The notes: generated by a model from the sequence alone, not told the origin. A stretch of 64,000 nucleotides of DNA from an uncultured Synechococcus sp. (GCA_964481635.1 CAYZTU010000001.1:149669-213668), one strand, 5' to 3'; counted from the stretch's first letter, positions 3,093 to 33,961 are shown. A program made the numbers and translations.

Positions 3093-3108
3093 ATTGGTAA
3101 TATAGCAA

Positions 3109-3222
3109 TCCTATCCGATTTGCAAACAAAAATTCAGAAGAACCATACACCGCAGGTGCTTCTCTGACGGGGGCTGCGCCCCTGCGACCGCCGTTCTAAA
3201 TTCACTTAGGATTGCTATATGG
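3109..3222. repeat. MITE-like repeat copy R1. TIR is TATAGCAATCC ... GGATTGCTATA, with an internal GGGGGC-TGC-GCCCC hairpin.
   Basis: Terminal inverted repeats are visible in the sequence. The right TIR supplies the TAG stop of the histidine kinase gene (CTA at 3215-3217 on the plus strand). Confidence 0.7.
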
Positions 3223-6200
3223 GTAAACGCACTCGAAATTCAGTCGAATTATTCCCACTGGTCAAATGAATCTGTCCCTGCAATCGTTCTACTAACTTTT
3301 TCACCAAAGCCAAGCCCAAACCCGTCCCCCCGTGTTGCCAAGGGTCATGGGTTGGAATACGGTAAAAGTTATCAAAAACCCGCTCCTGTTCCTCTAGGGG
3401 AATCTCAACCCCCGTATTGATCACGCAAAAATTACAGTAATTCCCCGTTTCCCATTCAATCGCCAGGGTAATGTTTTCTTGAGCAGGAGTATATTTACAG
3501 GCATTGTGCAAAAGTTCTTGCAGGATACGTTCGAGGGAGTTGGCATGGGTTTGTAGGGGATAAAGCTGATCAGGAAGTTGTAGATGGAAATGTTGATTTT
3601 GAGATTGGGTACGCTCTTGAATCGGAGGTAAAAGATGATCTAAAATTTGTTCAATATCCACGGGTTCTAATTCTAAATCCACTTGTTCCGCATTCAAACG
3701 GGCGAGGTCGAGCAGGTCATTGATGAGTTCGGTTTCTCGTGTAGTTGCACTTTTGAGGATGTCGAGGTAGCGTTCAATGCCCAATTCTGGACTGTCTAAA
3801 ACCCCCGCTCTTTGCAACCGCAACTCTAACATTTTTATCGCCATGCCAATGTTGTGCATGGGGGAACGCAATTCATGGGAAACGGTACTAAGAAATTCAT
3901 CCTTGAGTTGATTCAACTTTTGCAATTCGACGACCTGAACTTGCGCCGCTTTATACAATTCTGCCTGACGCAGAGCAATCGCCAAATGCAACCCCACGTG
4001 TTGTAAAATTTCTATTTCATTGGTTTGCCAAATGCGAGGACTATCATTTTGATAAGCCGCTAACAGACCCCATAATTTCTGTTCCAAAAAAATGGGAATA
4101 GTAACTTGGGCACGGGCTTGAAATCGCTCTAATAACTCGATATGACAAGGGGTAAATCCTGATTTATAGATATCATTGCTGACCAGAATATAATGCTGAT
4201 GGAAGCGACCGCCTTGGGTTTCCTGTAGGCAATGGTCGGATAGGGTAGTCAAAGCTCCCGTGACCACGGGCACCCAACCCGCTGCCACCGATTCGGCCAG
4301 AAAATACCCTGTCCAATCATCATTAAATTGATAAACCACCACCCGGTCACAGGCCAGGGTGCTGCGGGTTTCATCGAGGACAATACCCAGCGTTTTTTCA
4401 ATATCTAAAGATTCATGGATGGTTTCAATAATCACCCGCAATAACCCTTCTGATTGGGCTTGCTGTTGCAACTGAACTGTCCGCTCTTGGATACGTTGCG
4501 CCAATTCTTGATTGAATCGCTGTAAGCGCAATTCGGCTTCTTTTTCAGGAGTTATATCCGTAAACACTGAATCCCATATGGTACTACCATCGGGTTGCCG
4601 CTCCGGTTGTCCTCGCCCCCGCAACCATTTGTGTTGACCTTGGGGGGTAATGATCCGCCATTCCGCTTGCCAAGTGGTTAAATGTTGGCGAGATTCTTCT
4701 GACAATCTGAGGATATGAGGCAAATCTTCGGGAACCGTCAAATCCCACATCATTTGAACATTTTGCCTCGCCTGTTCTGGCGGCACACCATACAATGCTT
4801 CACACCCCGCACTTACATAAAGCAGAGCCTCCCGCCCGTCCGGCCACAACTGATACCGCCACACCGTTACGGGTAAATTGGTCACCAGATTGTCTAAAAA
4901 TTTCTGGCTTTCTGCGAGTGCCAATTCCGTTGCCTTTAACTCAGTAATATCCGTTGCCACCCCCAACATTTGATTGGGAAGCCCTTGGGCATTGCGGCTC
5001 AGAACCCGATCTCGACTAAAGAGCCACCGCCATTCCCCGGATTTCGTCCGCATCCGATATTCAATTTGTATTCCTCCCGCTTGTATTTCTCCCGCAAAAC
5101 TCGGCTCAAATAGATGCGCTAAATTTGCTTCTATTTTTGGCAAGTCCTCCGGGTGAATTAGATTAGGGAATAGTTGGCTACCCATCGCTTGAATTTCCGC
5201 CACTGAATAACCCAAGACCGACTCGATCTCAGGATTGACAAAAACATTGCGATTCTCTTCCAAGTCATAGACATAGATAATCGATTGAGTGGCAGTAACA
5301 ATCCGATGCAAAAATTCCTGTTGCTTTTCTAATTCTGCTTGAGCAGTTTTTATTTCAGTAATATCCAAAACAATCCCATCCCAAAATGGTTCATTTTGAT
5401 GCTGGCGCATCTGAGAACGTCCCTCTAGCCACTTCAATTTCCCCGACGGCGTAGTGATCCGCCATTGACAATGCCAAGGGGCGGATTGGACAATAGCTGT
5501 CTGAATCGAAGTGAGTAATAAATCCAAATCCTCCGGGTGGGTAAATTTCATCCAGATAGCAGTGACATCGGCCATAATTTCTGGGACGGTCAATTCAAAT
5601 ATGTCTTCAGCACAATCACTCAAATAACTAAAGCGATGGGGGTGTTCTGCCGTTGCAGGATGATAGCGATAGACCATCCCCGGCATATTTTCCAGTAAGG
5701 TCAAAAATTGCTCTCGACTTTCTTGGAGTTCCTGTTTCAATTTTACTTTTTTGGTAATATCTACAGATATGCAGATAAAACCCACCACATCGCCGGTGTG
5801 ATTGCGTAGCACCAGCGCATTGTCCCGGATCCAAACCATAGAACCATCCCGGCGTTGCAGGCGATATTCTTCCGCATATTCATGGGGCGGTGTGTGAACA
5901 GCCTGTTCCCAAGCGTGGATCACCCTATAGCGGTCATCGGGATCAATGACATCCACCCAACCCTGCCCCAACATCTCCTGCGCTGACATTTGACATAGCT
6001 GCTGTGTGAGATATTCATTCACATAAATACAACATCCTGCGGCATCAGTTAATGCCACACCAACGGGTAAAGCGTTCAACAAAAAATGGTAAGGTTCATC
6101 TTCCGTAATAGGCAGGGGAAAATGATTGGAAGTATGACTAAAATTATGATTTAACGTATGATTTTCTCCCCACCCCGTCGCTGGAATGATTAAACCCAAA

Positions 6201-6550
6201 TGCGCTGTGAATAACTCCCACTCTGGCTCAATTTCTGGATTTACATTCCCTCGCCAATAACTCACCAACCAGCCCCACCCTTGCCGCCGCACCATGATGG
6301 GAAATAACCAGGCTTCCCCACTTTCACTTTGAATTTTTTCAGCTTGCCAAGTGTCGGGTAGCTGTTCATGCCCAACTGTTTCGCCAACCGCTAACACCAT
6401 CTGCTGACCCTGGTAGAGCGAGACTTGGTGTACGTTATACTTTCTTTGTAATTGCATCAGCGCAGATTGGATAACCTGATCTACCGCCCCTCCCGCCTGG
6501 ATTTGGAGCGTCATTTGGCTACACAATTCGACTACCGATGTCCTTTTCAA
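3215..6550 (-). CDS. Multi-sensor signal-transduction histidine kinase with several PAS/PAC domains, a GAF domain, HisKA and HATPase_c.
   Basis: H-box LSTVSHELRSPMHNI. G-boxes GTGLGLALVKKL. Repeated PAS-like blocks of the form WIRD.. /ITE.K.AQ. Confidence 0.85.
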   Translation of the reverse strand: MKRTSVVELCSQMTLQIQAGGAVDQVIQSALMQLQRKYNVHQVSLYQGQQMVLAVGETVGHEQLPDTWQAEKIQSESGEAWLFPIMVRRQGWGWLVSYWRGNVNPEIEPEWELFTAHLGLIIPATGWGENHTLNHNFSHTSNHFPLPITEDEPYHFLLNALPVGVALTDAAGCCIYVNEYLTQQLCQMSAQEMLGQGWVDVIDPDDRYRVIHAWEQAVHTPPHEYAEEYRLQRRDGSMVWIRDNALVLRNHTGDVVGFICISVDITKKVKLKQELQESREQFLTLLENMPGMVYRYHPATAEHPHRFSYLSDCAEDIFELTVPEIMADVTAIWMKFTHPEDLDLLLTSIQTAIVQSAPWHCQWRITTPSGKLKWLEGRSQMRQHQNEPFWDGIVLDITEIKTAQAELEKQQEFLHRIVTATQSIIYVYDLEENRNVFVNPEIESVLGYSVAEIQAMGSQLFPNLIHPEDLPKIEANLAHLFEPSFAGEIQAGGIQIEYRMRTKSGEWRWLFSRDRVLSRNAQGLPNQMLGVATDITELKATELALAESQKFLDNLVTNLPVTVWRYQLWPDGREALLYVSAGCEALYGVPPEQARQNVQMMWDLTVPEDLPHILRLSEESRQHLTTWQAEWRIITPQGQHKWLRGRGQPERQPDGSTIWDSVFTDITPEKEAELRLQRFNQELAQRIQERTVQLQQQAQSEGLLRVIIETIHESLDIEKTLGIVLDETRSTLACDRVVVYQFNDDWTGYFLAESVAAGWVPVVTGALTTLSDHCLQETQGGRFHQHYILVSNDIYKSGFTPCHIELLERFQARAQVTIPIFLEQKLWGLLAAYQNDSPRIWQTNEIEILQHVGLHLAIALRQAELYKAAQVQVVELQKLNQLKDEFLSTVSHELRSPMHNIGMAIKMLELRLQRAGVLDSPELGIERYLDILKSATTRETELINDLLDLARLNAEQVDLELEPVDIEQILDHLLPPIQERTQSQNQHFHLQLPDQLYPLQTHANSLERILQELLHNACKYTPAQENITLAIEWETGNYCNFCVINTGVEIPLEEQERVFDNFYRIPTHDPWQHGGTGLGLALVKKLVERLQGQIHLTSGNNSTEFRVRLPI

Positions 6551-6689
6551 TTTCCGAAGCCCCTATGCAATAAAATGTTACTATTTTCCAACTTCCAATG
6601 ATAAGGTAGACTTAGAAGGGAAGCCGATTTTTTTACACTCTGCAATAATTAGGCCACCGGCGTAGCTGTGAGCTAGACAACTTGTGCTT

Positions 6690-6735
6690 TTCTTAGAACG
6701 GGCGGTCGGCAATCCTTAGAGATTGCCATATAAAA
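6690..6735. repeat. Degenerate, internally deleted MITE-like fragment R2 (cttagaacgggcggtcggcaatcc ... gattgccatata).
   Basis: Partial match to the core and right TIR of the repeat family. Confidence 0.35.
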
Positions 6736-6766
6736 TCAGAGGTCAAACGATCAGGTAGATAGAATA

Positions 6767-7336
6767 ATGATTACCCAAATCCAAACCGGCTCCCATACCC
6801 TAGAGGAATATCTAGCCCTAGAAATTGCATCAGAAACCCGCCACGAATACATTCATGGAGCAATAATCCCCATGACTGGAGGAATGCCCAATCACAACCG
6901 CCTCATCCGTAATTTTTGCACGCTACTAACCGTTCAACTTCCTAAAGATTGTGAAGTATTTGTTAGCGATCAACGGCTTTGGATACCAACTCATCAGATA
7001 TATACTTACCCTGATGTCATGGTCATTAGAGGTGATCTCGTCCTGCAAGAAGGGCGAAAAGATACAATCACTAATCCGGTGCTGATTGTAGAAGTGTTGT
7101 CGGAATCCACTGCCTACTATGATCGTGGTCAAAAATTTACTTACTATCGCTCCATCCCTTCATTTCAAGAATATCTACTTGTAGATCAGTACACCTATTC
7201 CGTACAACACTATCAAAAAATTTCTGACACAAAATGGGAGTTTGAAGAATTTAACAACCTAGAGGAAGAAATTGAATTTACCAGTATTCCTTGCAGGATT
7301 TCACTTATGGATACCTACGAAAAAGTAGAGTTATAG
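6767..7336 (+). CDS. Uma2 family endonuclease (DUF820), second paralog.
   Basis: EYIHGAII, PDVMVI and LIVEVLSEST motifs. AT-rich. The stop TAG lies inside the TTATAG start of the next MITE copy. Confidence 0.8.
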   Translation: MITQIQTGSHTLEEYLALEIASETRHEYIHGAIIPMTGGMPNHNRLIRNFCTLLTVQLPKDCEVFVSDQRLWIPTHQIYTYPDVMVIRGDLVLQEGRKDTITNPVLIVEVLSESTAYYDRGQKFTYYRSIPSFQEYLLVDQYTYSVQHYQKISDTKWEFEEFNNLEEEIEFTSIPCRISLMDTYEKVEL

Positions 7337-7462
7337 CTAAACACGCAATATATGATTGTGAGAATCTCTATGAATTTAGTAACAGCAAGCGGTCGCAGGG
7401 GGGCACCCCCCGTCACTGGTTCTCCAGAATCTTTGTTCGCAAATCGAATCGTATTGCTATAT
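7333..7462. repeat. MITE-like repeat copy R3a (TTATAGCTAAAC ... GCGGTCGCAGGGGGGCACCCCCC ... GTATTGCTATAT).
   Basis: Core hairpin and right TIR. Sits in tandem with copy R3b. Confidence 0.6.
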
Positions 7463-7494
7463 TGTCAAAATTGTCAAGAATTTCTATAGCAATC

Positions 7495-7606
7495 CTAGAT
7501 GAATTTAGAACAGCGGTCGCAGGGGCGCAGCCCCCGTCTTTGGTTCTATAGCTATGCCACGCAAGCTATCAGAATCTTTGTTCGGCAATCAGATAGTATT
7601 GCTATA
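7495..7606. repeat. MITE-like repeat copy R3b (TATAGCAATCC ... GCGGTCGCAGGGGCGCAGCCCCCGTC ... GTATTGCTATAG).
   Basis: Full TIRs plus the core. Contains the cacgcaagctatc sub-motif shared with copies R4 and R7. Confidence 0.7.
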
Positions 7607-7680
7607 GTACTTTTGAGCTTAGCTGTTCATTACCCTGAAAATACCAAATAAAAGCATAGTATCTAGCAGAATATTCACGC

Positions 7681-7914
7681 TTACATATACTCCTTCAAAT
7701 CCTCAAGCGGTTCATCAAAATTTTCGGCCATCCAAATCTTATCTTTCAGGATTCCAAACCCGCATCGCTTTTTCTTTTGCTGTACTGTATCTATTTGTTC
7801 TGGTTCCACTCCAGAATAGGTCTCAAGTAGATGATGGGCATAATCAAGAAGCTTATTTTTCAGTGATTCTGGCAGGTGAGAAACTGTTTCTAAAATCTCT
7901 GTTTCAACAGTCAT
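7681..7914 (-). CDS. DUF2281-like small protein (putative orphan type II antitoxin).
   Basis: The KLLDYAHHLL motif is typical of DUF2281. No cognate PIN-domain toxin ORF is adjacent, and MITE copies lie on both sides. Confidence 0.5.
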   Translation of the reverse strand: MTVETEILETVSHLPESLKNKLLDYAHHLLETYSGVEPEQIDTVQQKKKRCGFGILKDKIWMAENFDEPLEDLKEYM

Positions 7915-8007
7915 TGTTATTTACCTTTCTAGTTTTGGTGCCGCTTTTACTGTTACCAGTATAACATCTATAACATCATGTAATTATAGATCACCTCTAT
8001 TAATTCA

Positions 8008-8119
8008 TATTAATTCAGGAATGGCGGTCGCAGGGGCGCTACACGCAGTGTGCCGGAGGCATTCCCCCGTCCTTAGTTCATGGCTACGTCACGCAAGCTA
8101 TCGGTAATATAAGCATTCC
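8008..8119. repeat. MITE-like repeat copy R4 (variant ends GGAATG ... CATTCC; core GCGGTCGCAGGGGCGC).
   Basis: Core motif plus the cacgcaagctatc sub-motif. Confidence 0.55.
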
Positions 8120-8257
8120 AACGAGATAATTTTCTACTGGTTCCAATAATATAGAGATGCTCTAGAGGTGTCCCACGGATGGGGTCTTTTTGACAATTTT
8201 TTGACAAAATTAATGGGAATTTGTTAGCTTAAGTAAAATTTACCTAACGCTCACGGA

Positions 8258-9460
8258 ATGTCAATCATGGAGGCACATATCCCAATCGGGCGGGGCAAGC
8301 GGGCACGGCGAGCCTACGGCATTGATGAGATTGCCCTTGTTCCCGGTTCAGGTACCCTTGACCCCGCATTGGCGGATACCACTTGGTCACTGGGCGGGAT
8401 TGTCCCAGGTAACCCGCCCGCTATCGTCCGTGAGATACCCATTATTGCCAGTGCCATGGATGGGGTAGTAGATGGGGCAGTAGCGGTAACCCTAACGGAG
8501 TTGGGGGCGTTGGGGGTCTTGAATCTGGAGGGTTTGCAAACCCGTTATGAAGACCCAACCCCAATTTTGGAGCGGATTACCCAGGTGGGCAATGAGGAAT
8601 TTGTCGGACTGATGCAAAAACTCTACCAAGAGCCAATTAAGCCGGAGTTGGTCACGGTGCGGATTCAGGAAATCAAGCAACGGGGGGGCATTGCGGCGGT
8701 CAGCACTACGCCGGGGCGGGCGACGACCTTGGCACCCTTGGCGGCGGCGGCGGGGGCGGATTTGTTTTTTGTCCAGGCCACGGTGGTTTCGACGGCACAT
8801 TTGGCCGTTGCGGGGGTGGAATCCCTGGATTTACATCGGTTTTGCCACGAATTACCCATCCCGGTGGTGCTGGGAAACTGTGTTACCTACGGGGTGGCTC
8901 TCAACTTGATGAAAGCGGGTGCCGCCGCTATTTTGGTGGGCATTGGCCCAGGGGCGGCCTGTACCTCCCGGGGCGTGTTGGGGGTGGGGGTGCCCCAAGC
9001 GACAGCAGTAGCGGATTGTGCCGCCGCCCGGGAGGACTACCAGGCGGAAACCGGTCGCTATGTGCCCGTGATTGCCGACGGGGGGCTGGTCACCGGCGGA
9101 GACATCTGTAAAGCGATTGCCTGTGGTGCCGATGGGGTGATGATCGGTTCCCCCTTGGCACGGGCGCAGGAAGCTCCTGGCCGGGGCTACCACTGGGGCA
9201 TGGCGACCCCCAGCCCGGTACTACCGCGGGGCACCCGGATTCGGGTGGGCACGACCGGCACCCTGGCGCAAATTCTCCGGGGGCCAGCCCTCCTGGATGA
9301 CGGCACCCACAACCTGCTGGGGGCGTTGAAAAACAGCATGGCGACCGTGGGTGCTAAAAATCTGCGGGAAATGCAACAAACCGAGGTGGTTATTGCCCCT
9401 TCTTTATTGACGGAAGGTAAGGTTTACCAACGGGCGCAGAAACTAGGCATGGGTAAATAG
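8258..9460 (+). CDS. IMP dehydrogenase family protein lacking CBS domains (GuaB3-type).
   Basis: Active-site loop [11 protein letters not shown] with the catalytic Cys. IADGGL motif. No CBS insertion. Confidence 0.8.
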
Positions 9461-9661
9461 TTTAGATAGTTTCAGACAAAAATCAGTACAATATCCTGTT
9501 AAACACACCCTAAACCTGTGGCTTCAATGTACTAGAACAACCCCCCTGGTGCCAATTCTTAAGAAATACAGACAAAGGGCTGGCCTTGTCTCAGGAAATT
9601 TGTTTATAATAGCAGAGTGCGGAGACGCAAGTTTCCGTTCACTCCTCACACCACACTCTGG

Positions 9662-9688
9662 CCTAAGCTGGTGCTTAGGTCTTTTTTT
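9662..9688 (+). terminator. Putative rho-independent terminator hairpin (CCTAAGC-TGGT-GCTTAGG followed by TCTTTTTTT).
   Basis: 7-bp perfect stem followed by a T-run. Located in the 327-bp intergenic region between the IMPDH-family gene and trxA. Confidence 0.4.
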
Positions 9689-9786
9689 GGGCATTTTTTG
9701 CAGACAGGTGGGGCTGGTGATGGCGAAAAGCCCAAATTTTTTGTGGTAAAATTAGGTTTGCTGATTTCGAATCATTCAGAGGATGG

Positions 9787-10122
9787 ATGCTTATGTCAGA
9801 TGCAGCCCCAGTCACGGATGCAACCTTTGAGCAAGAGGTAATTCACAGCCCGATTCCGGTGCTGGTTGACTTTTGGGCACCCTGGTGCGGGCCGTGTCGC
9901 ATGGTAGCTCCGGTGGTGGATGAGGTGGCGAAGGAGTTTGAAGGCCGGGTCAAAGTGGTCAAACTCAACACGGACGACAATCCCAAAATCGCCAATGAGT
10001 ACGGCATTCGGAGTATTCCCACCCTGATGATTTTCAAAGGCGGTCAGAAGGTGGACGTGGTGATGGGCGCAGTCCCGAAAACCACCCTGGTCAAAGCGTT
10101 ACAACAGCAATTATCCGCATAA
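9787..10122 (+). CDS. trxA: Thioredoxin.
   Basis: WCGPC active site. Typical size of about 110 aa. Confidence 0.95.
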
Positions 10123-10138
10123 GGAGCATCATTAAATC

Positions 10139-10375
10139 ATGGCACGGCGTTGTCAATTAACCGGAAAGCGGGCGAATAATGCCTTTTCGGTCTCCCACTC
10201 CCACCGGCGTACCAAGCGTCTCCAGGAAGTGAATTTGCAATGGAAGCGGGTCTGGTGGCCGGAGGGACAGCGCTGGGTGCGACTGCGGCTTTCCACCCAG
10301 GCAATTCGCACCTTGCAACGGCGGGGTTTGCAGGCTATGGCGCAGGCGGCGGGGATTGACCTCAACCAAGTGTGA
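10139..10375 (+). CDS. rpmB: 50S ribosomal protein L28.
   Basis: [23 protein letters not shown] matches the conserved L28 N-terminus. Confidence 0.9.
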
Positions 10376-10863
10376 TGCCGCCGTTCCGCATTGGCAATGG
10401 TTACGATATTCACCGGTTGGTGCCGGAACGGGCATTGATCCTGGGGGGGGTGACCATTCCCCATTCCCTGGGGCTATTGGGGCATAGTGATGCGGACGTC
10501 TTGACCCATGCGGTCATGGATGCCCTGCTGGGAGCCTTGGCTTTGGGGGATATTGGTCATTATTTTCCCCCGGATGACCCGCAGTGGGCAGGGGCGGATA
10601 GCGTGATGCTGTTGACCCAGGTGCGGCAACTGGTGGCGGAACGGGGGTGGCAGGTCGCCAACGTGGATGCGGTGGTGGTGGCGGAGCGACCGAAGCTGAA
10701 ACCCCATATCCCGCTGATGCAAGCTCGGTTGGCGGCGGCTTTGGGGGTAGCACCAGCCCAGGTGGGGGTGAAGGCAACGACGAATGAACAATTGGGACCG
10801 GTGGGGCGAGAAGAGGGAATTGCCGCCCATGCGGTCGCTTTATTAGTGCCCGTAAGTAGTTGA
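10372..10863 (+). CDS. ispF: 2-C-methyl-D-erythritol 2,4-cyclodiphosphate synthase.
   Basis: [11 protein letters not shown] and [18 protein letters not shown] motifs. Start overlaps the rpmB stop by 4 nt. Confidence 0.9.
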
Positions 10864-10999
10864 CGGATTGGGGAAATTTGATTAAGCTTGGAAGCGTCAA
10901 ACCATTGGTTTATCGCAGTTCACGGCCTTAAATGGAAAGCGAGTGCTACGACTAAACCAAGTACTGAGAGATTCTTAACTTTTTGGTGAGGCGCTCTGT

Positions 11000-13943: not shown

Positions 13944-13958
13944 GGGTCAACCCAGGGG

Positions 13959-14729: not shown

Positions 14730-14730
14730 T

Positions 14731-15504: not shown

Positions 15505-15643
15505 ATCAATGGGTTGTCAGTACAGTGGACTGTGGGTAATTCTAACCCCAGATTTATCTTGGAAGCAAATCCCCAGAAACCGCCCGTCAAAATTTACCAA
15601 CGGGGGCATGGTACCCTGGAAATCAGCAAGGGAGGGAATGCTC

Positions 15644-17029
15644 ATGTCTCGGTTTCGTTGGCTTCTCGGTCTAAACACCTTGGGTTTCGTCCTGGCTCTG
15701 CCGGTATTGGCGCAAACCGCAGCCGGGGGCGGCGGGTCGAGTTTGTTGGGGGTGTTGACCCTCGCCTTTTTAACCTTGTTCATCCTGGTGATGGTTCTGG
15801 TCATCCTTAGCCAGGTTATCTACATTTGCAATCCCAACGAAATTTTAATTTTTTCTGGGCGGGAACATCGGCTCAGTGGCGGTCAAAAAGTGGGCTACCG
15901 TGTGGTTTTTGGGGGGGCTTCGCTGCGGATTCCCATCATCGAAAGTGTTGACCGGATGGATTTGACTACCATGCCCGTCCAAGTGGAGGTTAAAAATGCC
16001 TATGCTGCCGGCGGCACTCCTCTGCAAATCCAAGCCATTGCCAACATCAAAGTTTCCAGTGCGCCAGCGATCGTGGGTAATGCGATTGAGCGGTTTTTGG
16101 GACGCAAGCGGGAGGAAATCATCCGGGTTGCCAAGGAAACTTTGGAAGGGAATTTGCGTGGGGTAGTGGCGACTTTGACCCCCGAACAAGTGAATGAAGA
16201 CCGGCTCGAATTTGCCGACCGCATTTCCCAGTATGTCGAGCGGGACTTATCGAAGTTGGGTTTGCAGTTAGATACCCTGAAAATTCAGAGTGTTTCCGAT
16301 GAAGTGGATTATCTCAATTCCATCGGCAGGCGACAAATCGCCAACATGATTCGGGATGCCAAAATTGCCGAATCCAATGCGGAGCGGGAAGCGGAATCTG
16401 CCGCCGCTGAGAGCCGTCGTGCCGCCGAAGTCGCCCAAAAAGAAGCCCAAGCTGCCATCCAACAAAAGCAAAATGAACTCCGCAAGATGCAGGCCGAACT
16501 AGAATTGCAGGCACGCTCCGAGGAAGAACGCACCGAAGCCACCGCCCAGGAGACCCGGGCACGGTCGGAACAGGAGCTACAAACCGTGCGGGCGGAATTG
16601 GAACGGTTGCGGTTAGAAGCGGACGTGGTACTACCGGCGCAAGCGCAACGGCAAGCCCAGGAATTGTTAGCCCGGGCGCAGGCGGCTCCCTTGGCGGCTA
16701 ATGCCAGAGCCACGGCTACCGTGACGGATATGCTCAATGAACTCTGGCAAGAGTATGGTCAGGATGCCAGTGCTATCTTATTGATTCAACAACTGGAGAT
16801 GCTCCTGACCACAGCGGCGCAAGTGCCCCAAAAGCTAAACTTGGGGCAGATCAACGTCATCGACAGCGGCGATGGTCGAGCCCTGTCCAGCCTCATGCGG
16901 GCTTATCCAGAAATGACCCAACAGTTCCTGCAACAGGCGGATCAAACCCTGGGGTTGAATTTAGCGGACACCCTCCGTTCCCCAACCCATCGCCAGCCAG
17001 CACCCCCAACAGACACGCCATCGGAGTAG
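15644..17029 (+). CDS. Flotillin/SPFH (band 7) family protein with an N-terminal membrane region and an Ala/Glu-rich coiled-coil.
   Basis: SPFH core followed by a long AEREAESAAAE...QELLARAQA coiled-coil. Start placed at MSRFRWLL (15644), because the longer ORF would overlap the convergent VanY-like gene. Confidence 0.75.
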   Translation: MSRFRWLLGLNTLGFVLALPVLAQTAAGGGGSSLLGVLTLAFLTLFILVMVLVILSQVIYICNPNEILIFSGREHRLSGGQKVGYRVVFGGASLRIPIIESVDRMDLTTMPVQVEVKNAYAAGGTPLQIQAIANIKVSSAPAIVGNAIERFLGRKREEIIRVAKETLEGNLRGVVATLTPEQVNEDRLEFADRISQYVERDLSKLGLQLDTLKIQSVSDEVDYLNSIGRRQIANMIRDAKIAESNAEREAESAAAESRRAAEVAQKEAQAAIQQKQNELRKMQAELELQARSEEERTEATAQETRARSEQELQTVRAELERLRLEADVVLPAQAQRQAQELLARAQAAPLAANARATATVTDMLNELWQEYGQDASAILLIQQLEMLLTTAAQVPQKLNLGQINVIDSGDGRALSSLMRAYPEMTQQFLQQADQTLGLNLADTLRSPTHRQPAPPTDTPSE

Positions 17030-17072
17030 TGCTTGAAACCGTTGGCCAATCAAATACGTTTGGGCAAACACC

Positions 17073-17483
17073 CTAACCGCCTCCAGAACGAGCCAAGCCC
17101 AAGGTCAAGACCAGAAGCAAACAGCCCACAAAAGTCAATCCCAAAAGAAATAGGGCGAACAATTCCCCCGCCGAGAGGGGGCGGTCCGTCGGGTCAAGAT
17201 AGGCCGAATACATCTGCTGAATTTGTTGCAACGTGGGGGTCGGGGGCAGGGTGCTTTGCCACAACTGCTGGTCATAATCCGCCCGTTGTTGCGGCGAAAT
17301 CAGTACCGTGTAGGCCGTATTGATCTGATGGAATTTTTCCTGGGCGACCGCAATTGGTAGCGTGGTGGTATCAGGGTGGTAGCGTTTACTCAATTCCCGA
17401 TAGGCTCGGCGAATCGTCTCCCCACTGGCAAAACGATGCACCCCCAGAATTTCGTAGTAGGTTGGCTTCGAGATACCCACCAT
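17073..17483 (-). CDS. J-domain (DnaJ-like) protein with a C-terminal TM helix.
   Basis: YYEILGV...YRELSKRYHPD (HPD motif). Hydrophobic C-terminus. Confidence 0.85.
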   Translation of the reverse strand: MVGISKPTYYEILGVHRFASGETIRRAYRELSKRYHPDTTTLPIAVAQEKFHQINTAYTVLISPQQRADYDQQLWQSTLPPTPTLQQIQQMYSAYLDPTDRPLSAGELFALFLLGLTFVGCLLLVLTLGLARSGGG

Positions 17484-17588
17484 GGGATTTGCCCAGCATT
17501 ACTTTTACCAATGTATTGCATTTAATGTCTTGCATCCCACCGGGGGGTGTGGGTCAATATAGAAACAGTACCAGTACCGGGGAACGCC

Positions 17589-18128
17589 ATGACCACACCG
17601 GAGTACGAAGAATTGCTGGCACAGGGTAGCCAGGTCAAAGGGGCAATGGCACTCCTGAAATCCTACCGCTCCTACCTGGAATTGCTCCCCAGTATGCGCC
17701 GTCAAGAAGATAGCTTGATTACCGTGGTTTTGCCCCTGGTGCGGCAGGAAGGTCGCTTGGTGCAACTGCCCTGTGAATTGGCCTTGCTCCCCTGTGACCC
17801 AACCTGGCAGGTAAAAACCGACCAGGAAATTTTGGTATTTATCCACCGGGAAGCGGAGGATTTTTCCCAACTGATGCACCGCTGGCGGCAAACCCAAATC
17901 ATCCTCGGCCAACCCTATGAATGGGTGATGCCCCCCCGCCACAGCCAGGTGTACAACGAAGGTGCCGAAAAAATTTACCCCCTGTTTATCCTCTGGCCGA
18001 GTAGTCCCCAGCGCATCCGCCACGGCTTGCAGGGGGCAGGTTTACCCGCAGTGATCCACACCCAACCCATCACAACCAGCCGTTCAGACGACTACCCTGA
18101 CCCGGTGCCAGACAGTGACCCGGTGTAA
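17589..18128 (+). CDS. Hypothetical protein.
   Basis: ORF with ordinary codon usage and no recognisable motif. Start assumed at MTTPEYEEL. Confidence 0.45.
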   Translation: MTTPEYEELLAQGSQVKGAMALLKSYRSYLELLPSMRRQEDSLITVVLPLVRQEGRLVQLPCELALLPCDPTWQVKTDQEILVFIHREAEDFSQLMHRWRQTQIILGQPYEWVMPPRHSQVYNEGAEKIYPLFILWPSSPQRIRHGLQGAGLPAVIHTQPITTSRSDDYPDPVPDSDPV

Positions 18129-18244
18129 TTTGTTCGTTAATTTTCTGCTATTATAAAAAATCGTGTGTTTAACCTTACCCCATCTGGTCACTACGGGTGT
18201 TCTTTGGGAACCCAACCAGGTGGCTTGAACCCGTAGGAGTCCCT

Positions 18245-19015
18245 ATGTCTATTTCCCTAGCCCAACTGTTGGAAGCGGGGGTGCATTTCGGCCACCAAGC
18301 CCGCCGCTGGAACCCCAAAATGTCCCCGTACATTTTCGCCGAGCGCAATGGGGTGCATATCATTGACCTGGTACAAACCGCCAGTTTGCTCAATGATGCC
18401 TACGAATATATGCGCCGTGCCGCTGAAGCGAACAAGAAGTTTTTGTTTATTGGCACTAAACGTCAGGCCGCTGGGATCGTTGCCCAGGAAGCCAGCCGCT
18501 GTGATGCCTATTACGTCAACCAACGCTGGTTGGGCGGGATGCTCACCAACTGGACAACGATCAAATCCCGGGTGGATCGCCTGAAGGATTTGGAGCGACG
18601 GGAAGAAACCGGCGGTTTAGACCTGTTACCCAAGAAAGAGGCGGCCACGCTCCGGCGGGAACTGGAACGGCTGCGTAAGTATTTGGGTGGCATCAAGCTG
18701 ATGCGGCGACCCCCCGACATTGTGGTGATCGTTGATCAAAAGCGGGAATACAATGCCGTTCAAGAATGTTTGAAGCTCAATATTCCCATCGTTTCTTTGT
18801 TGGACACCAACTGTGACCCGGATGTGGTGGACGTGCCCATCCCCGCTAATGACGATGCGATTCGCTCGATTAAGCTTGTGCTTGGCTCATTGGTGGATGC
18901 CATTTGTGAAGGGAAACACGGTCAGGTTGGGGCGATGGAGGACGGGGAAATGGGCGAAGAAGACCTGCCCTTGGAAGAAGATGAGGGGGACATCCCCGAT
19001 GAATCCGAATCCTGA
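18245..19015 (+). CDS. rpsB: 30S ribosomal protein S2.
   Basis: [26 protein letters not shown] matches the S2 N-terminus. Acidic C-terminal tail. Confidence 0.95.
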
Positions 19016-19051
19016 ACGGGTTAAAATAGACCAAGTTGAACAGGAGTAGTT

Positions 19052-19810
19052 ATGGCCGAAGTTTCCGCCCAAATGGTCAAAACCCTCCGGGAAAAAACCG
19101 GTGCGGGGATGATGGACTGCAAAAAAGCCCTCCAGCACAGTGAGGGTGACCTGGACAAGGCCATTGAATTTTTGCGGCAAAAAGGGTTGGCTTCGGCGGA
19201 GAAAAAAGCCGGTCGCAGCACCACCGAAGGGGTGATTTACAGCTACATCCACACCGGCAGTAAGTTGGGGGTGTTGCTGGAAATTAATTGCGAAACGGAT
19301 TTCGTCGCCAAAGGGGAGGATTTCCAAAGTTTGGCGCACAACATCGCCCTGCAAATTGCCGCTACTGAGAATGTGGAATACGTGGACATGAGTGAAATTC
19401 CCGTGGCGGCGATTGAACGGGAAAAGGCGATTGAGATGGGACGGGAAGACCTGGCCAAAAAACCGGAAGCGGTGCGGGAAAAAGTCGTCCAAGGCCGCTT
19501 GGATAAGCTGTTCAAAGAGCGGTGCCTGGTGGATCAGCCCTACATCAAAGACCCGAATATCACCGTCGGGGATTTGGTGAAACAGACCATCGCCAAGGTG
19601 GGTGAAAATATCCGGGTGCGTCGCTTCACCCGCTATCGTTTGGGCGAGGAGTTGGTGACTGCTGCCCCACCGGCGGAACCATCGGAAGCCGCAACCCCGG
19701 AGCCGACCCCAGCGGTACTTGAGGCGGTGGCGGTAGCAGTGGCGGTTACGGAGCCGACCCCGGCACCTGCGGCCAAAAAGGAAACCAAATCCCGTTCTAA
19801 GAAAAAGTAA
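19052..19810 (+). CDS. tsf: Elongation factor Ts with a C-terminal Pro/Ala/Glu-rich, lysine-terminated extension.
   Basis: [27 protein letters not shown] matches the EF-Ts N-terminus. Conserved rpsB-tsf gene order. Confidence 0.95.
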
Positions 19811-19811
19811 G

Positions 19812-20411
19812 GTGCTCACCCCGGAGCAGTACCGCCAGAAAATGCAACAACGCCAGCAGGTGCAGGCGGAGCGTTTAGCCCAATGTACGGAAAAAGGGCT
19901 AGTGATTGTCCATACGGGGGAGGGCAAGGGCAAAACCACGGCGGCCTTGGGGATGGTACTCCGTTCCCTGGGGCATGGTTATCGGGTGGCGGTGGTGCAG
20001 TTTATCAAGGGAGCCTGGTGTCCGGCGGAGCGGCGGGTTTTAGAACATTGGTCGGAGCAGATGACCTGGCACGCCCTGGGGGAGGGATTTACCTGGGATA
20101 CGCAAGACCGGGAGCGGGATCGGCAATGCGCTCAAGCCGCCTGGGTCATGGCGGGGAATTACCTGAAAAACCCAGATTATTACTTGACGGTTTTGGATGA
20201 GGTGAATGTGGCACTCAAGCTGGGTTATTTAGAAATCAACCAAGTATTAGCAGATTTGGCGGCAAAGCCCCCCCAGACCCATGTGGTGTTGACCGGGCGG
20301 GGTGCCCCCCCGGAATTGGTGGACTATGCCGACTTGGTGACGGAAATGACCCTGCGGAAGCACCCGTTTCGTACCCAGGGGGTCAAGGCTCAAGCGGGGA
20401 TTGAATTTTAG
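19812..20411 (+). CDS. cobO: Cob(I)yrinic acid a,c-diamide adenosyltransferase.
   Basis: P-loop GEGKGKTTAA and VLDEVN motifs typical of CobA/CobO/BtuR. Confidence 0.85.
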   Translation: MLTPEQYRQKMQQRQQVQAERLAQCTEKGLVIVHTGEGKGKTTAALGMVLRSLGHGYRVAVVQFIKGAWCPAERRVLEHWSEQMTWHALGEGFTWDTQDRERDRQCAQAAWVMAGNYLKNPDYYLTVLDEVNVALKLGYLEINQVLADLAAKPPQTHVVLTGRGAPPELVDYADLVTEMTLRKHPFRTQGVKAQAGIEF

Positions 20412-20481
20412 GCGCACCGGATGACTTTCCCCCAGGCTCACCCATTTGCTACAGTCAGAACCAACCTGCTGAAGGTGCCCT

Positions 20482-21804
20482 ATGGGTAAGTTCGCCCCGC
20501 CCCGACTGCGGCAATGGCTGAAGTGGCTGAAGCCGGGATTGCTGGTCAAACGCTGGTTGGTGGTGACCTTCGTCGGCACGGTGTTGGTGGTGCTGGGGTT
20601 GTCCATTTCCCTGCGCCTGACCCCGGTGAATAGTTTTTTGCAGTTGATGGAAAGTGTACTGCGGACGTTGGCGACCGTGATTCCCAGCTATATTTCCGGG
20701 CCGGTGGCGGTTTTGGTGGGGATTGGGTTAATTATTTGGAGCCAGACCCGCTCTGTCGGTAGCTTGAGTGAAGCCCTGCGTCCCGAAGGGGAACAAGCCC
20801 TGGTGGATGTGTTGATTGCCCAACGCCAGCGCAACCGGGGGCCAAAAATTGTCGCACTGGGGGGGGGGACGGGGTTATCCCGGCTGTTGCGGGGTCTGAA
20901 AGCCTACAGCAGTAATATCACGGCGATTGTCACCGTAGCGGACGATGGGGGTTCCTCCGGGCGGCTACGGCGGGAGGTGGGGGTGTTGCCGCCGGGGGAT
21001 ATTCGCAACTGTTTGGCAGCCCTGGCGCGGGAAGAACAACTGTTAACGGAATTGTTTCAGTATCGGTTTGAATCCGGGGAAGGGCTGAGCGGCCACAGTT
21101 TTGGGAATTTGTACCTGACGGCACTGACGACCATTACGGGCAATCTGGAGCAGGCGATTGCCGCCAGTTCCCGGGTGTTGGCGGTGCGGGGGCAGGTATT
21201 ACCAGCGACGATGGCGGATGTGCATCTCTGGGCGGATTTGGCCGACGGGCGGCGCATTGAGGGGGAATCCCAAATCCCCAAGGCCAAGGGGCACATTGTC
21301 CGTATTGGTTGTACCCCCGCCCATCCCCCGGCGTTACCCAAGGCGATTGAAGCGATTGAAGAGGCGGATTTGATTTTGATTGGGCCGGGAAGCCTCTATA
21401 CCAGTGTGATTCCCAACCTGCTGGTGCCGGAAATTACCCAGGCGATTGCCCGGGCGACGGTGCCCCGTATTTATATTTGTAATGCCATGACCGAGCCGGG
21501 GGAAACCCAGGGCTATCGGGTGTCCGACCACCTGCAGGCCATCGAGCGGGTGACGGGGCAACGGATATTTGATGTGGTGTTGGTGCAAAAAAAATCCCCC
21601 TCCGCCCAGGCGTTGCAACGGTATGCCCAGGTGGGGGCGGGGTTTGTGGACTTAGACCGGGAGCAGGTGGTGAAAATGGGCTACCGCCTGATCCTGGCGG
21701 ATGTGATCCAGGAAGACCCGGAAAAAGCCCAGGTGCAACACCATTCCCAGCGGCTGGCGCACGTCCTCATGCGCTGGTATAGCCGGGTGCAGGCGTGGTG
21801 GTAG
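20482..21804 (+). CDS. YvcK/CofD-like gluconeogenesis factor family protein (UPF0052) with an N-terminal TM extension.
   Basis: [28 protein letters not shown] signature. Confidence 0.85.
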
Positions 21805-22259
21805 CATTGCCTGACCCAGCGGCCACGGTGCGGTGGGGGGAAGCCCTGAGCCACCTTTTGCCCGCCGGGGCGATTCTGTTGCTTCAAGGGGATTTGGGTA
21901 GCGGCAAAACCACTCTTGTCCAGGGACTCGCCCAGGGGTTGGGTATTACCGCACCCGTCACCAGCCCCACCTTTGCTCTAATCCAGGAATATCCGGAGGG
22001 GCGCATCCCCCTGTACCACTTGGATTTGTACCGGTTAGATTCGCAAGAAGTACAGCAATTGTACCCAGAATATTACTGGCAGGAAGCGGCACCGGGTATT
22101 GTGGCGATTGAGTGGCCGGAGCGGTTGCCCATGTGGCCGGCCAGTTACCTGCATTTGTGCTGGCAAAGTATGGCATCCGGGCGGCGGGTGACCCTAACGG
22201 CGCAGGGGGAGGCACCGCAAGAGTGGCTTCGGCACCTGGAGCAGGCGGCGGGAAATTAG
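21795..22259 (+). CDS. tsaE: tRNA threonylcarbamoyladenosine biosynthesis protein TsaE.
   Basis: [20 protein letters not shown]-loop and the conserved [10 protein letters not shown] motif. Confidence 0.85.
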
Positions 22260-22293
22260 ATTAGCATGGAGGGTACCGTCAATTTTTAAGCCC

Positions 22294-23637
22294 ATGACCG
22301 CATGGTTGGCTTGGTGGGGGAACCAATGGCGCACACTCACCCTGTGGTGGCGGAGTTTGGTGCAGGTGGTGGCCGATTTGCGCCTAGCGATTGGCCTGCT
22401 GTTGGTGATTGCGGTGGCGAGTATTGCCGGTACGGTGATTGAGCAGGGAGAAACCCTAACGTTTTACCGGGAAAATTATCCAGAACATCCGGCATTATTT
22501 GGATTTTTAACTTGGCAGGTCATTCTTTTTTTAGGATTCAATCAGGTCTATCAAACCTGGTGGTATTTGAGTTTATTAATTTTATTTGGGGCGAGTTTGT
22601 TGGCCTGTACGTCTCGGCGGCAATGGCCTGCCTTGAAAGTTGCCCGTAAGTGGTACTATCACCAGCGACCGGAGCAAATTTTGCGATTGAATTTAAGTCA
22701 AGTCTGCCCGGAAATTTCTATTTCTCAGTTGGCATCTATTTTGCGTCAAAAGGGATATTGGGTGGCTACGGAAAAGGAGAAACTTTATGCCCGTAAAGGG
22801 TTGGCGGGCAAAATTGGCCCGATTGTTGTTCATGCCAGTCTGGTGGTAATTTTAATCGGGGGTTTGGTCGGAGCACTAACCGGTTTTTTGGCTCAAGAAT
22901 TAGTCCCGAGTGGGCAGGATTTTCAACTCAAGAAAGTGATTGAAGCCGGGGCATGGGTGCGGCGTTTACCGCCAGTGCAGGGGCGGGTACATCGGTTTTG
23001 GATTGACTATACAGCGGGGGGAGAGATTGACCAGTTTTACACCGATTTGGGATTGTTAAATGCTGCCGGAGAAGAAGTGACCCGCAAGACCATTCATGTG
23101 AATGAACCTTTGCGGTGGCGGGGGTTGACTTTTTACCAAACCAGTTGGGGTATTCAGGGGGTACGATTGCGCTTTAATAATAGCCCAATTTTAGAACTGC
23201 CCGTTACTCCGTTTACAGCGGGGAATGGCCGGAAATTGTGGGGAACCTGGTTACCCCTAAAACCCGATTTAAGCGAGGGGGTATCCTTGGTAATTCCTGA
23301 CCTACAGGGCTTATTTTTGCTCTACGACCAACAGGGACAATTGTTAACCACCAGCCGGGTAGGAACACCGGTACATATTGGGGGGGTGGATTTAACGCTG
23401 ACCGAATTAGTTGGCAGTACGGGTTTACAAATCAAATCTGACCCGGGTGTACCCATTGTATATTTAGGCTTTGCTGGTTTGATGTTGGGTGTGATGATGA
23501 GTTACATCTCCCATAGTCAGGTGTGGGGGTTACAAATAGAAAAACAGTTATATGTTGGGGGTAAAACCAATCGGGCGCAGGTGACTTTTGAACAGGAATT
23601 TCTCAATATCTTGCAACAATTACAAGCCAGAATATAG
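22294..23637 (+). CDS. ccsB: Cytochrome c biogenesis protein Ccs1/ResB (CcsB).
   Basis: ResB-like N-terminal TM region and a large soluble domain. Length and topology are typical of cyanobacterial Ccs1. Confidence 0.8.
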   Translation: MTAWLAWWGNQWRTLTLWWRSLVQVVADLRLAIGLLLVIAVASIAGTVIEQGETLTFYRENYPEHPALFGFLTWQVILFLGFNQVYQTWWYLSLLILFGASLLACTSRRQWPALKVARKWYYHQRPEQILRLNLSQVCPEISISQLASILRQKGYWVATEKEKLYARKGLAGKIGPIVVHASLVVILIGGLVGALTGFLAQELVPSGQDFQLKKVIEAGAWVRRLPPVQGRVHRFWIDYTAGGEIDQFYTDLGLLNAAGEEVTRKTIHVNEPLRWRGLTFYQTSWGIQGVRLRFNNSPILELPVTPFTAGNGRKLWGTWLPLKPDLSEGVSLVIPDLQGLFLLYDQQGQLLTTSRVGTPVHIGGVDLTLTELVGSTGLQIKSDPGVPIVYLGFAGLMLGVMMSYISHSQVWGLQIEKQLYVGGKTNRAQVTFEQEFLNILQQLQARI

Positions 23638-23764
23638 ACTCAAATAATTATTGAAAATTCTCTTTCACCTGCGGCACTTCCCCCCTGTTAGGAAATAAGG
23701 CTATCTCACAAAATAACGAGGTATTCGTTGGATTCTCCTAAAGTAATCATGTAGTGATCTAATT

Positions 23765-23862
23765 AGAATTTTGCATGGCGGTCACATCGCACCGCCCCGC
23801 TCTGGTTCTGGCAGACCTCTTCAATTCTTATGAATCCCATGAGATTGCTATATCAACCCCAA
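23765..23862. repeat. MITE-like repeat copy R5 (GGCGGTCAC...CCGCCCCGCTCTGGTTCTGGCAGA ... GAGATTGCTATA).
   Basis: Core and right TIR. Lies immediately 3' of the doc fragment. Confidence 0.5.
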
Positions 23863-23903
23863 TCAGAGGTAGAGAACAACCTCAAACGCACCGCCAATTG
23901 CCT

Positions 23904-24438
23904 TCAATTTTCCGCTGCATTGGGATTGTTAGCTGGTGCTATATGATGCTGTAGCCACTCCACAAATGCTTCACGTCCCAGTTCACCTGATATGATCGCC
24001 AAGACTACACGCTCTTGTTCATCCACGGAGGCGTTAATTTTCAACCTATTCAGAACTATACCAATCCTACGGCATTCGTGAGAATATAAAAACGCTGAAG
24101 AACCAAAAACGGGGCGGTGCCCTGCGACCCTTTACTGTTTGAACGTAAAAATTATTCTCATGATTCAAGTGTGATTGCTATAGAAAGGTTTCCATTGCCG
24201 CATGACCTGTACGTTTATTTCCATCTACAAATGGATGATTGATGATGATTGAGAACCCTAATGTTGTTGCTTTTTCTAGCAGGTTTGGGTACAGGTCTTG
24301 TCCACCGAATGTCATTCGGGGCTGGGCGATCGCTGATTCTAATAAACCCATATCTCGGATGCCCGATGACCCACCGGATTGTTCAAGAATTTTGCGATGT
24401 AGCTCTAATACCTCAATCATTGTCAAATAGCGAATCAT
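23904..24438 (-). pseudogene. doc: Doc (death-on-curing, Fic/Doc family) toxin gene split by a MITE insertion. N-terminal 86 codons are at 24178-24438 and the C-terminal ~50 codons at 23904-24057.
   Basis: The N fragment carries the Fic motif HPFVDGNKRTGHAAMETFL. The C fragment translates to VLNRLKINASVDEQERVVLAIISGELGREAFVEWLQHH, which continues the Doc consensus. The two are separated by MITE R6, whose CTATAG end supplies an in-frame TAG. Confidence 0.8.
24058..24184. mobile_element. MITE-like repeat copy R6 inserted in doc (TIR TATACCAATCC ... GATTGCTATAG; likely TA or CTA target duplication).
   Basis: Removing the element restores the contiguous Doc reading frame ...METFL-VLNRLKINASVDE... 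Confidence 0.75.
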
Positions 24439-33959: not shown

Positions 33960-33961
33960 GA

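What the first reader, a model, noticed from the sequence alone, without database searches (positions are those of the whole stretch)
3209..24184. MITE termini repeatedly supply the stop codon of the upstream gene
The palindromic MITE end CTATAG or TTATAG provides the in-frame TAG stop of three genes: the 1111-aa histidine kinase (CTA at 3215-3217 on the minus strand), the Uma2 gene ending at 7336 (TTATAG), and the doc N-fragment (24178). This suggests the insertions landed inside, or at the very 3' end of, coding sequences. They either truncated the genes or replaced a few C-terminal codons. The sequence CTATAG is its own reverse complement, so it reads TAG on either strand.
Basis: seen in the sequence. 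Interest (0 to 1): 0.5.

Follow-up and report, generated by a model that had tools for sequence, protein, structure and literature searches.

The report
MITE ends supply three stop codons
A small non-coding transposon in this cyanobacterial genome inserts at TA and begins with TAG at both ends, so when it lands in a gene in the right codon phase it ends that gene on the spot; this happened three times here and is a known, ordinary side effect of such elements.

Summary
The stop codons of the 1111-aa histidine kinase (3215-3217, minus), a Uma2 gene (7334-7336) and the doc N-fragment (24178-24180, minus) are each the first three bases of a MITE copy. One detail needs correcting: only the doc site reads CTATAG. 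The kinase reads ATATAG and Uma2 reads TTATAG.

The cause is not the palindrome. The element proper is 5'-TAG...CTA-3' and duplicates a TA target. Removing 124 nt from doc restores a gapless 136-aa Doc that is 88% identical to intact homologues, and a relative supplies the DNA empty site.

An insertion whose target TA fills codon positions 2-3 therefore gives xTA|TAG at once. That phase holds 33% of coding TAs and 71% of coding CTAGs, the preferred target.

- Doc lost 50 of 136 residues.
- The kinase lost a non-conserved tail of 7-26 aa in four relatives read in full.
- Uma2 lost a tail that runs to about 20 aa in relatives.
- Uma2 with the MITE stop is also present in a related genome and evolves at dN/dS 0.12.

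The same kind of 3'-end overlap is documented for Coxiella QMITEs and other bacterial MITEs. This is a new member of a known kind, of low interest.

The parts
3101..3219 (.). MITE copy A. TA duplication at 3101-3102 and 3218-3219; element proper 3103-3217 (TAG...CTA). It lies between the convergent Uma2-194 and kinase genes.
   Evidence: nhmmer E 4e-27. Perfect 13-bp terminal inverted repeat TATAGCAATCCTA. The RNA fold is closed by the inverted repeats, z -2.9.
3215..6550 (-). PAS/GAF/HisKA/HATPase_c histidine kinase, 1111 aa. Its stop codon TAG (3215-3217) is the terminal CTA of MITE A, and its last codon ATA contains the duplicated TA.
   Evidence: HATPase_c matched to residue 1110. Orthologue tails.
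2508..3092 (+). Uma2-family gene, 194 aa. It keeps its own TAA stop 8 nt before MITE A.
   Evidence: 93% DNA identity to L002 230-910, ending at 3099.
6767..7336 (+). Uma2-family gene, 189 aa. Its stop TAG (7334-7336) is the first triplet of MITE C, and its last codon TTA contains the target TA (7332-7333).
   Evidence: Homology to L002 ends exactly at the TAG. dN/dS 0.12 against L002.
7332..7461 (.). MITE copy C with arms of two subfamilies. The left arm is TATAGCTAAACACGC..., the right arm ...GTATTGCTATA. TA duplication at 7332-33 and 7460-61.
7485..7606 (.). MITE copy B, 23 nt after copy C. Its target was CTAG (TTTC TA ... TA GTAC). It supplies no gene stop.
   Evidence: RNA fold z -4.3.
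24057..24182 (.). MITE copy D, inserted in doc at a CTAG. TA duplication at 24057-58 and 24181-82. One terminus has mutated to TAC.
24178..24438 (-). doc N-fragment, 86 aa, with the Fic motif HPFVDGNKRTGH. It is closed by the MITE's TAG at 24178-24180.
   Evidence: The fragment alone scores 35.8 bits, below the TIGR01550 cut-off of 38.65.
23904..24058 (-). doc C-fragment, 50 codons plus the native TGA. It is in frame with the N-fragment once the MITE and one TA are removed.
   Evidence: Restored Doc scores 44.1 bits, above the TIGR01550 cut-off.
24435..24632 (-). 65-aa ORF overlapping the doc start by 4 nt; presumed Phd-type antitoxin.
   Evidence: The same 65-aa + 136-aa arrangement occurs in L014-L016. 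No Pfam or NCBIfam hit.
23750..23852 (.). Further MITE copy, 51 nt downstream of the native doc stop. It supplies no gene stop.
24847..25018 (.). Further MITE copy with an internal triplicated segment, between the antitoxin ORF and the 2344-aa ORF. It supplies no gene stop.
33957..34079 (.). MITE copy whose first three bases are the TAG stop of the TpsB/ShlB-type ORF 32271..33959. No TA duplication is visible.
40756..40849 (.). Degenerate MITE copy between two convergent genes. Both genes keep their own stops, 40699-40701 TAA and 40860-40862 TGA.
48..150 (.). Further MITE copy of another arm subfamily, with a TATAGCTAAGTA end.
7985..8108 (.). Further MITE copy (TATAGATCACC end; the right end is approximate), between divergent gene starts.

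Best explanation
A family of roughly 100-170-bp non-coding transposons (MITEs) populates this Gloeomargaritales-type cyanobacterial genome.

Shown here:
- The element proper is 5'-TAG(C)AATCC...GGATT(G)CTA-3'.
- It carries a G+C-rich core, GGTCGCAGGGG...CCCCCGTC.
- It inserts at a TA dinucleotide, preferably inside CTAG, and duplicates the TA.

Inferred: it is mobilised in trans by an IS630/Tc1-mariner-type transposase. That family is the one known to give TA duplications.

Every insertion therefore creates ...N-TA|TAG... on one side and the mirror image on the other strand. If the target TA occupies codon positions 2-3 of a gene reading towards the element, the next codon is the element's TAG and translation stops immediately. 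In the other two phases the gene would run 5-35 codons into the element.

Insertions persist only where truncation is tolerated. That means the non-conserved C-terminal tails of the kinase and Uma2, or a dispensable toxin gene (doc), which is left as a split pseudogene.

The three-fold coincidence is a by-product of the element's end sequence, its target choice and purifying selection. It is not a dedicated function.
For: TA duplication and a TAG-first element. Removing 124 nt restores a 136-aa Doc, gapless and 88% identical to intact homologues. The DNA empty site is present in L014. In L002 the kinase site is an unoccupied A-TA-G.

Multiple copies with inverted repeats. About 11 copies lie in the window, with more in L002-L011 including G. 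lithophora.

Target preference. The base before the TA is C at 17 of 32 clear ends, and several empty-site reconstructions give CTAG.

Phase arithmetic, from 25 long genes of the window. 33% of coding TAs, 66% of coding TAGs and 71% of coding CTAGs (37 of 52) are in the phase that gives an immediate stop.

Truncated tails. See the orthologue C-termini.

The gene with a MITE stop is still functional. Uma2-189 has dN/dS 0.12 against L002, which has a MITE end at the same TA.

Not an assembly artefact. The same protein ends are on record from NCBI and from independent Logan assemblies.

Mechanistic precedent. ISY100 of Synechocystis (IS630 family) inserts almost exclusively at TA and duplicates it (PMC2170065).
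Against: No transposase gene with matching inverted repeats was found, so the IS630 assignment rests only on the TA duplication and the CTAG preference.

All three coding insertions are in the immediate-stop phase. By chance that has p of 0.04 for generic TA targets and 0.36 for CTAG targets, so a mild selective preference for that phase cannot be excluded.

At the kinase site the distal flank does not match L002, because 620 bp are replaced. At least one further rearrangement occurred there, and the number of residues lost is uncertain.

At the Uma2 site the MITE arms differ between the window and L002. A single shared insertion versus repeated use of the same TA is not resolved.

The copy at 33957-34079 shows no TA duplication.
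Confidence: 0.85

Rival explanations
1. Selected stop-supply. The TAG-first termini are an adaptation of the element or the host. Insertions that end translation at the element boundary are preferentially retained, because they avoid junk C-terminal tails and ribosomes running into the hairpin. The element would then act as a portable stop-plus-hairpin module at gene 3' ends.
For: All coding insertions seen in the window are in the immediate-stop phase, 3 of 3. No window ORF of at least 100 codons ends a few codons inside a MITE. Copies lie mostly just downstream of gene ends and fold into stems closed by the inverted repeats.
Against: Three events only. With the observed CTAG preference the chance expectation is already about 0.7 per event. 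The doc insertion destroys the gene, so its phase cannot have been selected for a useful C-terminus. None of about 25 ends in other loci supplies a stop. TATAG-type ends flanked by TA are common in unrelated bacterial MITEs (PMC2229807).
Confidence: 0.08
2. Coincidence. The genes always ended at these TAG codons, and the MITEs merely inserted immediately downstream.
For: The kinase and Uma2 both end exactly where orthologue conservation ends. One kinase orthologue (P0249) ends a residue earlier, and some Uma2 orthologues have tails of only 2-3 aa.
Against: With a TA duplication, proven at doc, the TAG belongs to the element and the preceding TA to the target. The pre-insertion sequence therefore continued in frame. 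L002 shows the kinase codon ATA followed by GGT AGT and 24 more codons. No MITE-free orthologue ends at the same residue.
Confidence: 0.04
3. The repeats are not mobile elements. They are conserved palindromic regulatory or terminator sequences (REP-like) that evolved in place at gene ends.
For: G+C-rich hairpin core, location mostly between genes, and stable predicted folds.
Against: One copy splits an otherwise intact doc ORF with a clean 2-bp duplication. Copies sit at non-homologous positions in related genomes. Terminal inverted repeats of 11-13 bp are flanked by TA.
Confidence: 0.02

Closest known systems
QMITE1 and QMITE2 of Coxiella burnetii (Wachter et al. 2018, PMC5896051)
   Same: These bacterial MITEs overlap the 3' ends of functional genes by 1-50 bp. 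Examples are ubiB by 2 bp, a glutamate transporter by 3 bp and kdgK by 1 bp. All affected functional genes carry the insertion at the 3' end, which alters the C-terminus without large size changes.
   Different: A different host and unrelated sequence. The paper does not describe a terminus that is itself a stop codon combined with a TA duplication. Here the overlap is always exactly the 3-nt TAG.
IS630/Tc1-mariner family and its MITE derivatives (ISY100 of Synechocystis, PMC2170065; RUP of S. pneumoniae mobilised by IS630-Spn1, PMC2229807)
   Same: Insertion at TA with duplication of the TA, short terminal inverted repeats, and cut-and-paste behaviour inferred from filled and empty sites. The CTAG preference matches what I recall for IS630 itself (own knowledge: Tenzen et al. 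1990).
   Different: No cognate transposase or matching IS ends were found here. The inverted-repeat sequence TAGCAATCC could not be compared with any catalogued IS.
Correia/NEMIS elements of Neisseria
   Same: A MITE of about 100-155 bp with a TA duplication and TA at the termini, found fused to open reading frames. From my own memory their ends also read TATAG.
Nezha and other cyanobacterial MITEs (Zhou et al. 2008; Wolk et al. 2010; reviewed in PMC3184786)
   Same: Cyanobacterial MITEs of about 130-170 bp with inverted repeats, direct repeats and filled/empty polymorphism. ORF fusions with chromosomal genes are reported for Anabaena MITEs.
   Different: The hosts are Nostocales, not Gloeomargaritales.

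Membership tests
MITE (miniature inverted-repeat transposable element) | Short (under about 500 bp), many copies, no coding capacity | tested here: met
   About 11 copies of 95-172 bp in the window and more in nine related loci. Stop codons occur within 0-35 codons in all inward frames.
MITE (miniature inverted-repeat transposable element) | Terminal inverted repeats | tested here: met
   TATAGCAATCCTA / TAGGATTGCTATA in copy A. Predicted folds are closed by the termini.
MITE (miniature inverted-repeat transposable element) | Target-site duplication and filled versus empty sites | tested here: met
   TA duplication shown by restoration of doc and by the empty site in L014. The kinase-proximal junction is empty in L002.
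IS630/Tc1-mariner-derived element | TA target, 2-bp TA duplication | tested here: met
   Property of the family as in PMC2170065.
IS630/Tc1-mariner-derived element | Preference for CTAG / NTAN context | tested here: met
   C precedes the TA at 17 of 32 ends. CTAG is reconstructed for copies B and D and for three L010 copies.
IS630/Tc1-mariner-derived element | A full-length IS in the same or a related genome with the same inverted repeats and a DDE transposase | not tested
   None seen in the 64-kb window or the fetched loci. No plasmid match.
Nezha MITE family | Inverted and direct repeats matching ISNpu3 and the Nezha consensus | not testable with these tools
   The consensus sequence is not in the held papers. 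Only the description is available.
Type II toxin Doc (Fic fold, TIGR01550) | Full-length match above the curated cut-off, Fic motif, upstream overlapping antitoxin ORF | tested here: met
   Restored 136-aa protein scores 44.1 bits against a cut-off of 38.65. The 86-aa fragment alone scores 35.8 bits, below the cut-off. The 65-aa ORF overlaps the start as in L014-L016.

The most novel reading that the evidence does not exclude
The TAG-first termini are a selected feature. They would make this MITE family self-terminating on both strands, so that it can colonise the last codons of genes and the gaps between convergent genes. Host genes would then keep these copies as combined stop-codon and hairpin 3' ends. 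The Uma2 gene has kept a MITE-supplied stop under purifying selection in two lineages, and the TpsB gene's stop also coincides with a MITE terminus.
Probability: 0.08. Interest if true: 0.45.

Novelty: new member of a known kind. Interest (0 to 1): 0.2.

Why it matters
The value is mainly practical.

- It explains why three gene ends here coincide with repeat ends.
- It shows that the 86-aa Doc protein on record from NCBI is the front half of a gene split by a MITE.
- It defines the ends (TAG...CTA) and the TA duplication of a MITE family that seems widespread in Gloeomargaritales. That would help annotation and strain comparison in this lineage, the closest known relatives of plastids (own knowledge).

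It does not reveal a new mechanism. Bacterial MITEs that clip or replace gene 3' ends are already documented.

Tried and rejected
1. A genome-contig scan with the kinase to find empty sites returned only a distant Cyclobacterium hit, L001.

2. The kinase as annotated at NCBI (P0241) could not be looked up by exact sequence.

3. MITE copy A found nothing in the plasmid collection, so no parent IS was identified.

4. A fourth TATAG stop, in ccs1/ResB ending at 23637, was considered as a MITE-supplied stop and rejected:
   - The 118 nt after it match no MITE copy.
   - Distant homologues end at about the same place.
   - Near relatives (96.5% identical up to 23601) carry the same TATAG inside the ORF in another frame, GCT TAT AGT CAT TTC AAT TAG, with no MITE behind it.

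5. A 4-bp TATA duplication was considered and rejected. It would leave doc out of frame and disagrees with the L014 empty site.

6. The promoter and terminator consensus scan over 2900-8300 was no richer than shuffled sequence.

7. Reconstructing the old Uma2 tail by removing both tandem MITEs gives LSKLSRISSTFELSCSLP. This resembles no orthologue tail, so the lost residues cannot be recovered that way.
Full report
**What is in the sequence**

- The 1111-aa histidine kinase (3215..6550, minus strand) ends TTA CCC ATA TAG.
- The 189-aa Uma2 gene (6767..7336) ends GTA GAG TTA TAG.
- The 86-aa doc fragment (24178..24438, minus strand) ends ACC TTT CTA TAG.

In each case TAG is the outermost triplet of a copy of one repeat family. 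The family has ends TATAGCAATCC...GGATTGCTATA and a G+C-rich core GGTCGCAGGGG...CCCCCGTC.

A profile built from four copies finds about eleven copies in the window, all in the first 41 kb. It finds more in every related locus fetched, including Gloeomargarita lithophora. Several subfamilies share the core but carry different arms. Copy C (7332-7461) combines arms of two of them. As RNA the copies fold into stems closed by their ends.

Only the doc site reads CTATAG. The kinase reads ATATAG and Uma2 reads TTATAG.

**How the element inserts**

The doc site settles this. Deleting 24059..24182 (124 nt, the element plus one TA) joins the 86-aa fragment in frame to 50 further codons. The result is a 136-aa protein.

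That protein matches 136-aa Doc toxins over 100% of its length, at up to 88% identity. There is no gap across the junction ...METFL|VLNRL.... It passes the NCBIfam Doc cut-off, which the fragment alone does not.

An intact operon of a 65-aa ORF plus a 136-aa doc in a relative gives the empty site at DNA level. It reads GAAACCTTTCTTGTTCTGAAT. The window reads GAAACCTTTCTA[TAGCAATC...GGATTGGTA]TAGTTCTGAAT.

So the target is TA, the TA is duplicated, and the element proper begins with TAG and ends with CTA. A 4-bp TATA duplication would leave doc out of frame.

Other copies agree. The base before the TA is C at 17 of 32 clear ends, and several reconstructed targets are CTAG. TA duplication is the hallmark of IS630/Tc1-mariner transposition, shown biochemically for the cyanobacterial ISY100 (PMC2170065). 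That such a transposase moves these copies is an inference. No matching full-length IS was found.

**Why stops arise**

Every insertion produces N-TA|TAG... reading inward from either side. If the target TA lies at codon positions 2-3, the next codon is TAG.

In 25 long genes of the window, that phase holds:
- 33% of coding TAs,
- 66% of coding TAs followed by G,
- 71% of coding CTAGs (37 of 52). The phase xxC TAG cannot exist inside a gene.

In the other two phases a gene would run 5-35 codons into the element.

Three immediate stops out of three coding insertions is therefore unremarkable (p 0.04 to 0.36). Three of 11 intact TAG ends closing long frames, against 5.5% of all TAGs, is only mildly unusual (p about 0.02). 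None of about 25 ends in eight metagenome loci closes a long frame.

**Were the genes truncated?**

*doc.* Yes. 50 of 136 residues are cut off. The C-fragment (23904-24058) is still intact, so the event looks recent. The truncated protein keeps the Fic motif but lacks the C-terminal third. I infer that it is inactive.

*Kinase.* Conservation among 14 orthologues ends at ...TEFRVRLPI. Thirteen continue past that point. The tails read in full are 7 aa (G. lithophora), 21 aa (P0244, P0246) and 26 aa (L002).
- The syntenic contig L002 (81% DNA identity over the gene) reads CCC ATA GGT AGT... with 26 more residues. The TA of codon ATA is an unoccupied A-TA-G site there.
- G. lithophora reads CCC ATT AGT ... 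TAA, and has copies of the same family about 100 nt downstream that do not touch the stop.
- Simple excision in the window would give LPILPI*.
- However, the window's MITE replaces 620 bp of L002 (a MITE-like copy, a HicB-like gene, G-rich repeats and the kinase tail). A deletion or MITE-MITE recombination also happened, and the number of residues lost lies between 3 and about 26.

*Uma2-189.* Thirty-nine more distant orthologues continue past ...VEL, by 2 aa upward. The only one that ends at VEL is P0121 in L002, and there too GAG TTA TAG is followed by a MITE, though with different arms. Between the two genomes the gene has dS 0.19 and dN/dS 0.12. A Uma2 gene ending in a MITE-supplied stop is thus kept under purifying selection. 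A single old insertion versus repeated use of the same TA cannot be decided.

**What it is not**

- Not coincidence. Given the TA duplication the TAG belongs to the element, and the pre-insertion frame continued.
- Not an in-place regulatory palindrome. One copy splits a gene cleanly, and copies sit at different places in relatives.
- Not an assembly artefact. The same protein ends are on record from NCBI and from independent Logan assemblies.

Nothing after it resembles a MITE. Near relatives carry the same TATAG within the ORF in another frame.

**Comparison with what is known**

The Coxiella QMITE1 and QMITE2 families overlap the 3' ends of functional genes by 1-50 bp. All affected functional genes there carry the insertion at the 3' end (PMC5896051). 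Reviews describe MITE fusions to the 3' ends of genes in enterobacteria, pneumococci, Bordetella and Anabaena, and TA at MITE termini as the common case (PMC3184786, PMC2229807).

The present family works like an IS630-type MITE. Membership in the MITE class is met on all defining features tested. Membership in a named family (Nezha, Correia) could not be tested.

The finding is a new member of a known kind. The tidy part, a terminus that is itself a stop codon on both strands, follows from TA duplication plus a TAG-first inverted repeat.

**Verdict**

- Observation: confirmed, with one correction.
- Interpretation: supported.
- Mechanism: a by-product of transposon end sequence, target choice and purifying selection (confidence 0.85).
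- Interest: low (0.2).

The most novel reading not excluded is that immediate-stop insertions are preferentially retained, or that the TAG ends are selected (probability about 0.08).

Noticed in passing
window 32271-34079: The TpsB/ShlB-type transporter ORF (POTRA_2 + ShlB) ends ...SVQGVF, with GTG TTT TAG. That TAG is the first triplet of a MITE arm (33957-34079). No TA duplication is visible, and both flanks read GTTT. The C-terminal Phe looks like a complete outer-membrane beta-signal, so this copy may sit exactly on the native stop codon rather than truncating the gene.
   Followed up: partly
window 3093-3225 versus L002 911-1530: The single MITE between Uma2-194 and the kinase replaces 620 bp of the syntenic relative. 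That stretch holds a MITE-like copy, a HicB-like antitoxin gene, G-rich repeats and the 26-aa kinase tail. This suggests a deletion, perhaps by recombination between two MITE copies.
   Followed up: partly
window 23601-25096 versus L017-L019: Identity to near relatives is 96.5% up to 23601 (inside the last 12 codons of ccs1) and then collapses. Relatives have about 620 nt with other small genes where the window has the antitoxin ORF, doc and three MITE copies. This looks like a strain-variable island with a recombination breakpoint inside the ccs1 3' end, which also shortens Ccs1 from 458 to 447 aa.
   Followed up: partly
window 7332-7606: Two MITE copies lie in tandem, 23 nt apart. The first is a chimera of two arm subfamilies. 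At the same Uma2 site, L002 carries yet another arm combination, which points to frequent exchange between copies.
   Followed up: partly
window 24178-24438: The 86-aa Doc fragment is on record from NCBI as a protein sequence (cluster look-up), although it is the front part of a gene split by a MITE.
   Followed up: yes
window 25097-32131: A 2344-aa ORF with many internal repeats of about 190 nt (families D1, D2, D4 and D5) lies next to the TpsB-type transporter gene. Together they look like a two-partner secretion pair.
   Followed up: no
window 41082-42329: Five tandem 237-nt repeats (67-79% identity) lie inside the 582-aa ORF 40860..42608 on the minus strand.
   Followed up: no
window 1-46; L002 1340-1420; L018 11490-11560: G- and C-rich palindromic stretches (CCCCCCTGCTAAGGGGGG, GGGGGATTTAGGGGGATC) recur next to MITE copies in the window and in relatives. 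This is a second small repeat family that was not analysed.
   Followed up: no
whole window: The cyanobacterial HIP1 octamer GCGATCGC occurs only once in 64 kb, no more than chance. The region around the MITEs is rich in toxin-antitoxin-type and Uma2 genes: two Uma2 genes, doc and a DUF2281 gene.
   Followed up: no
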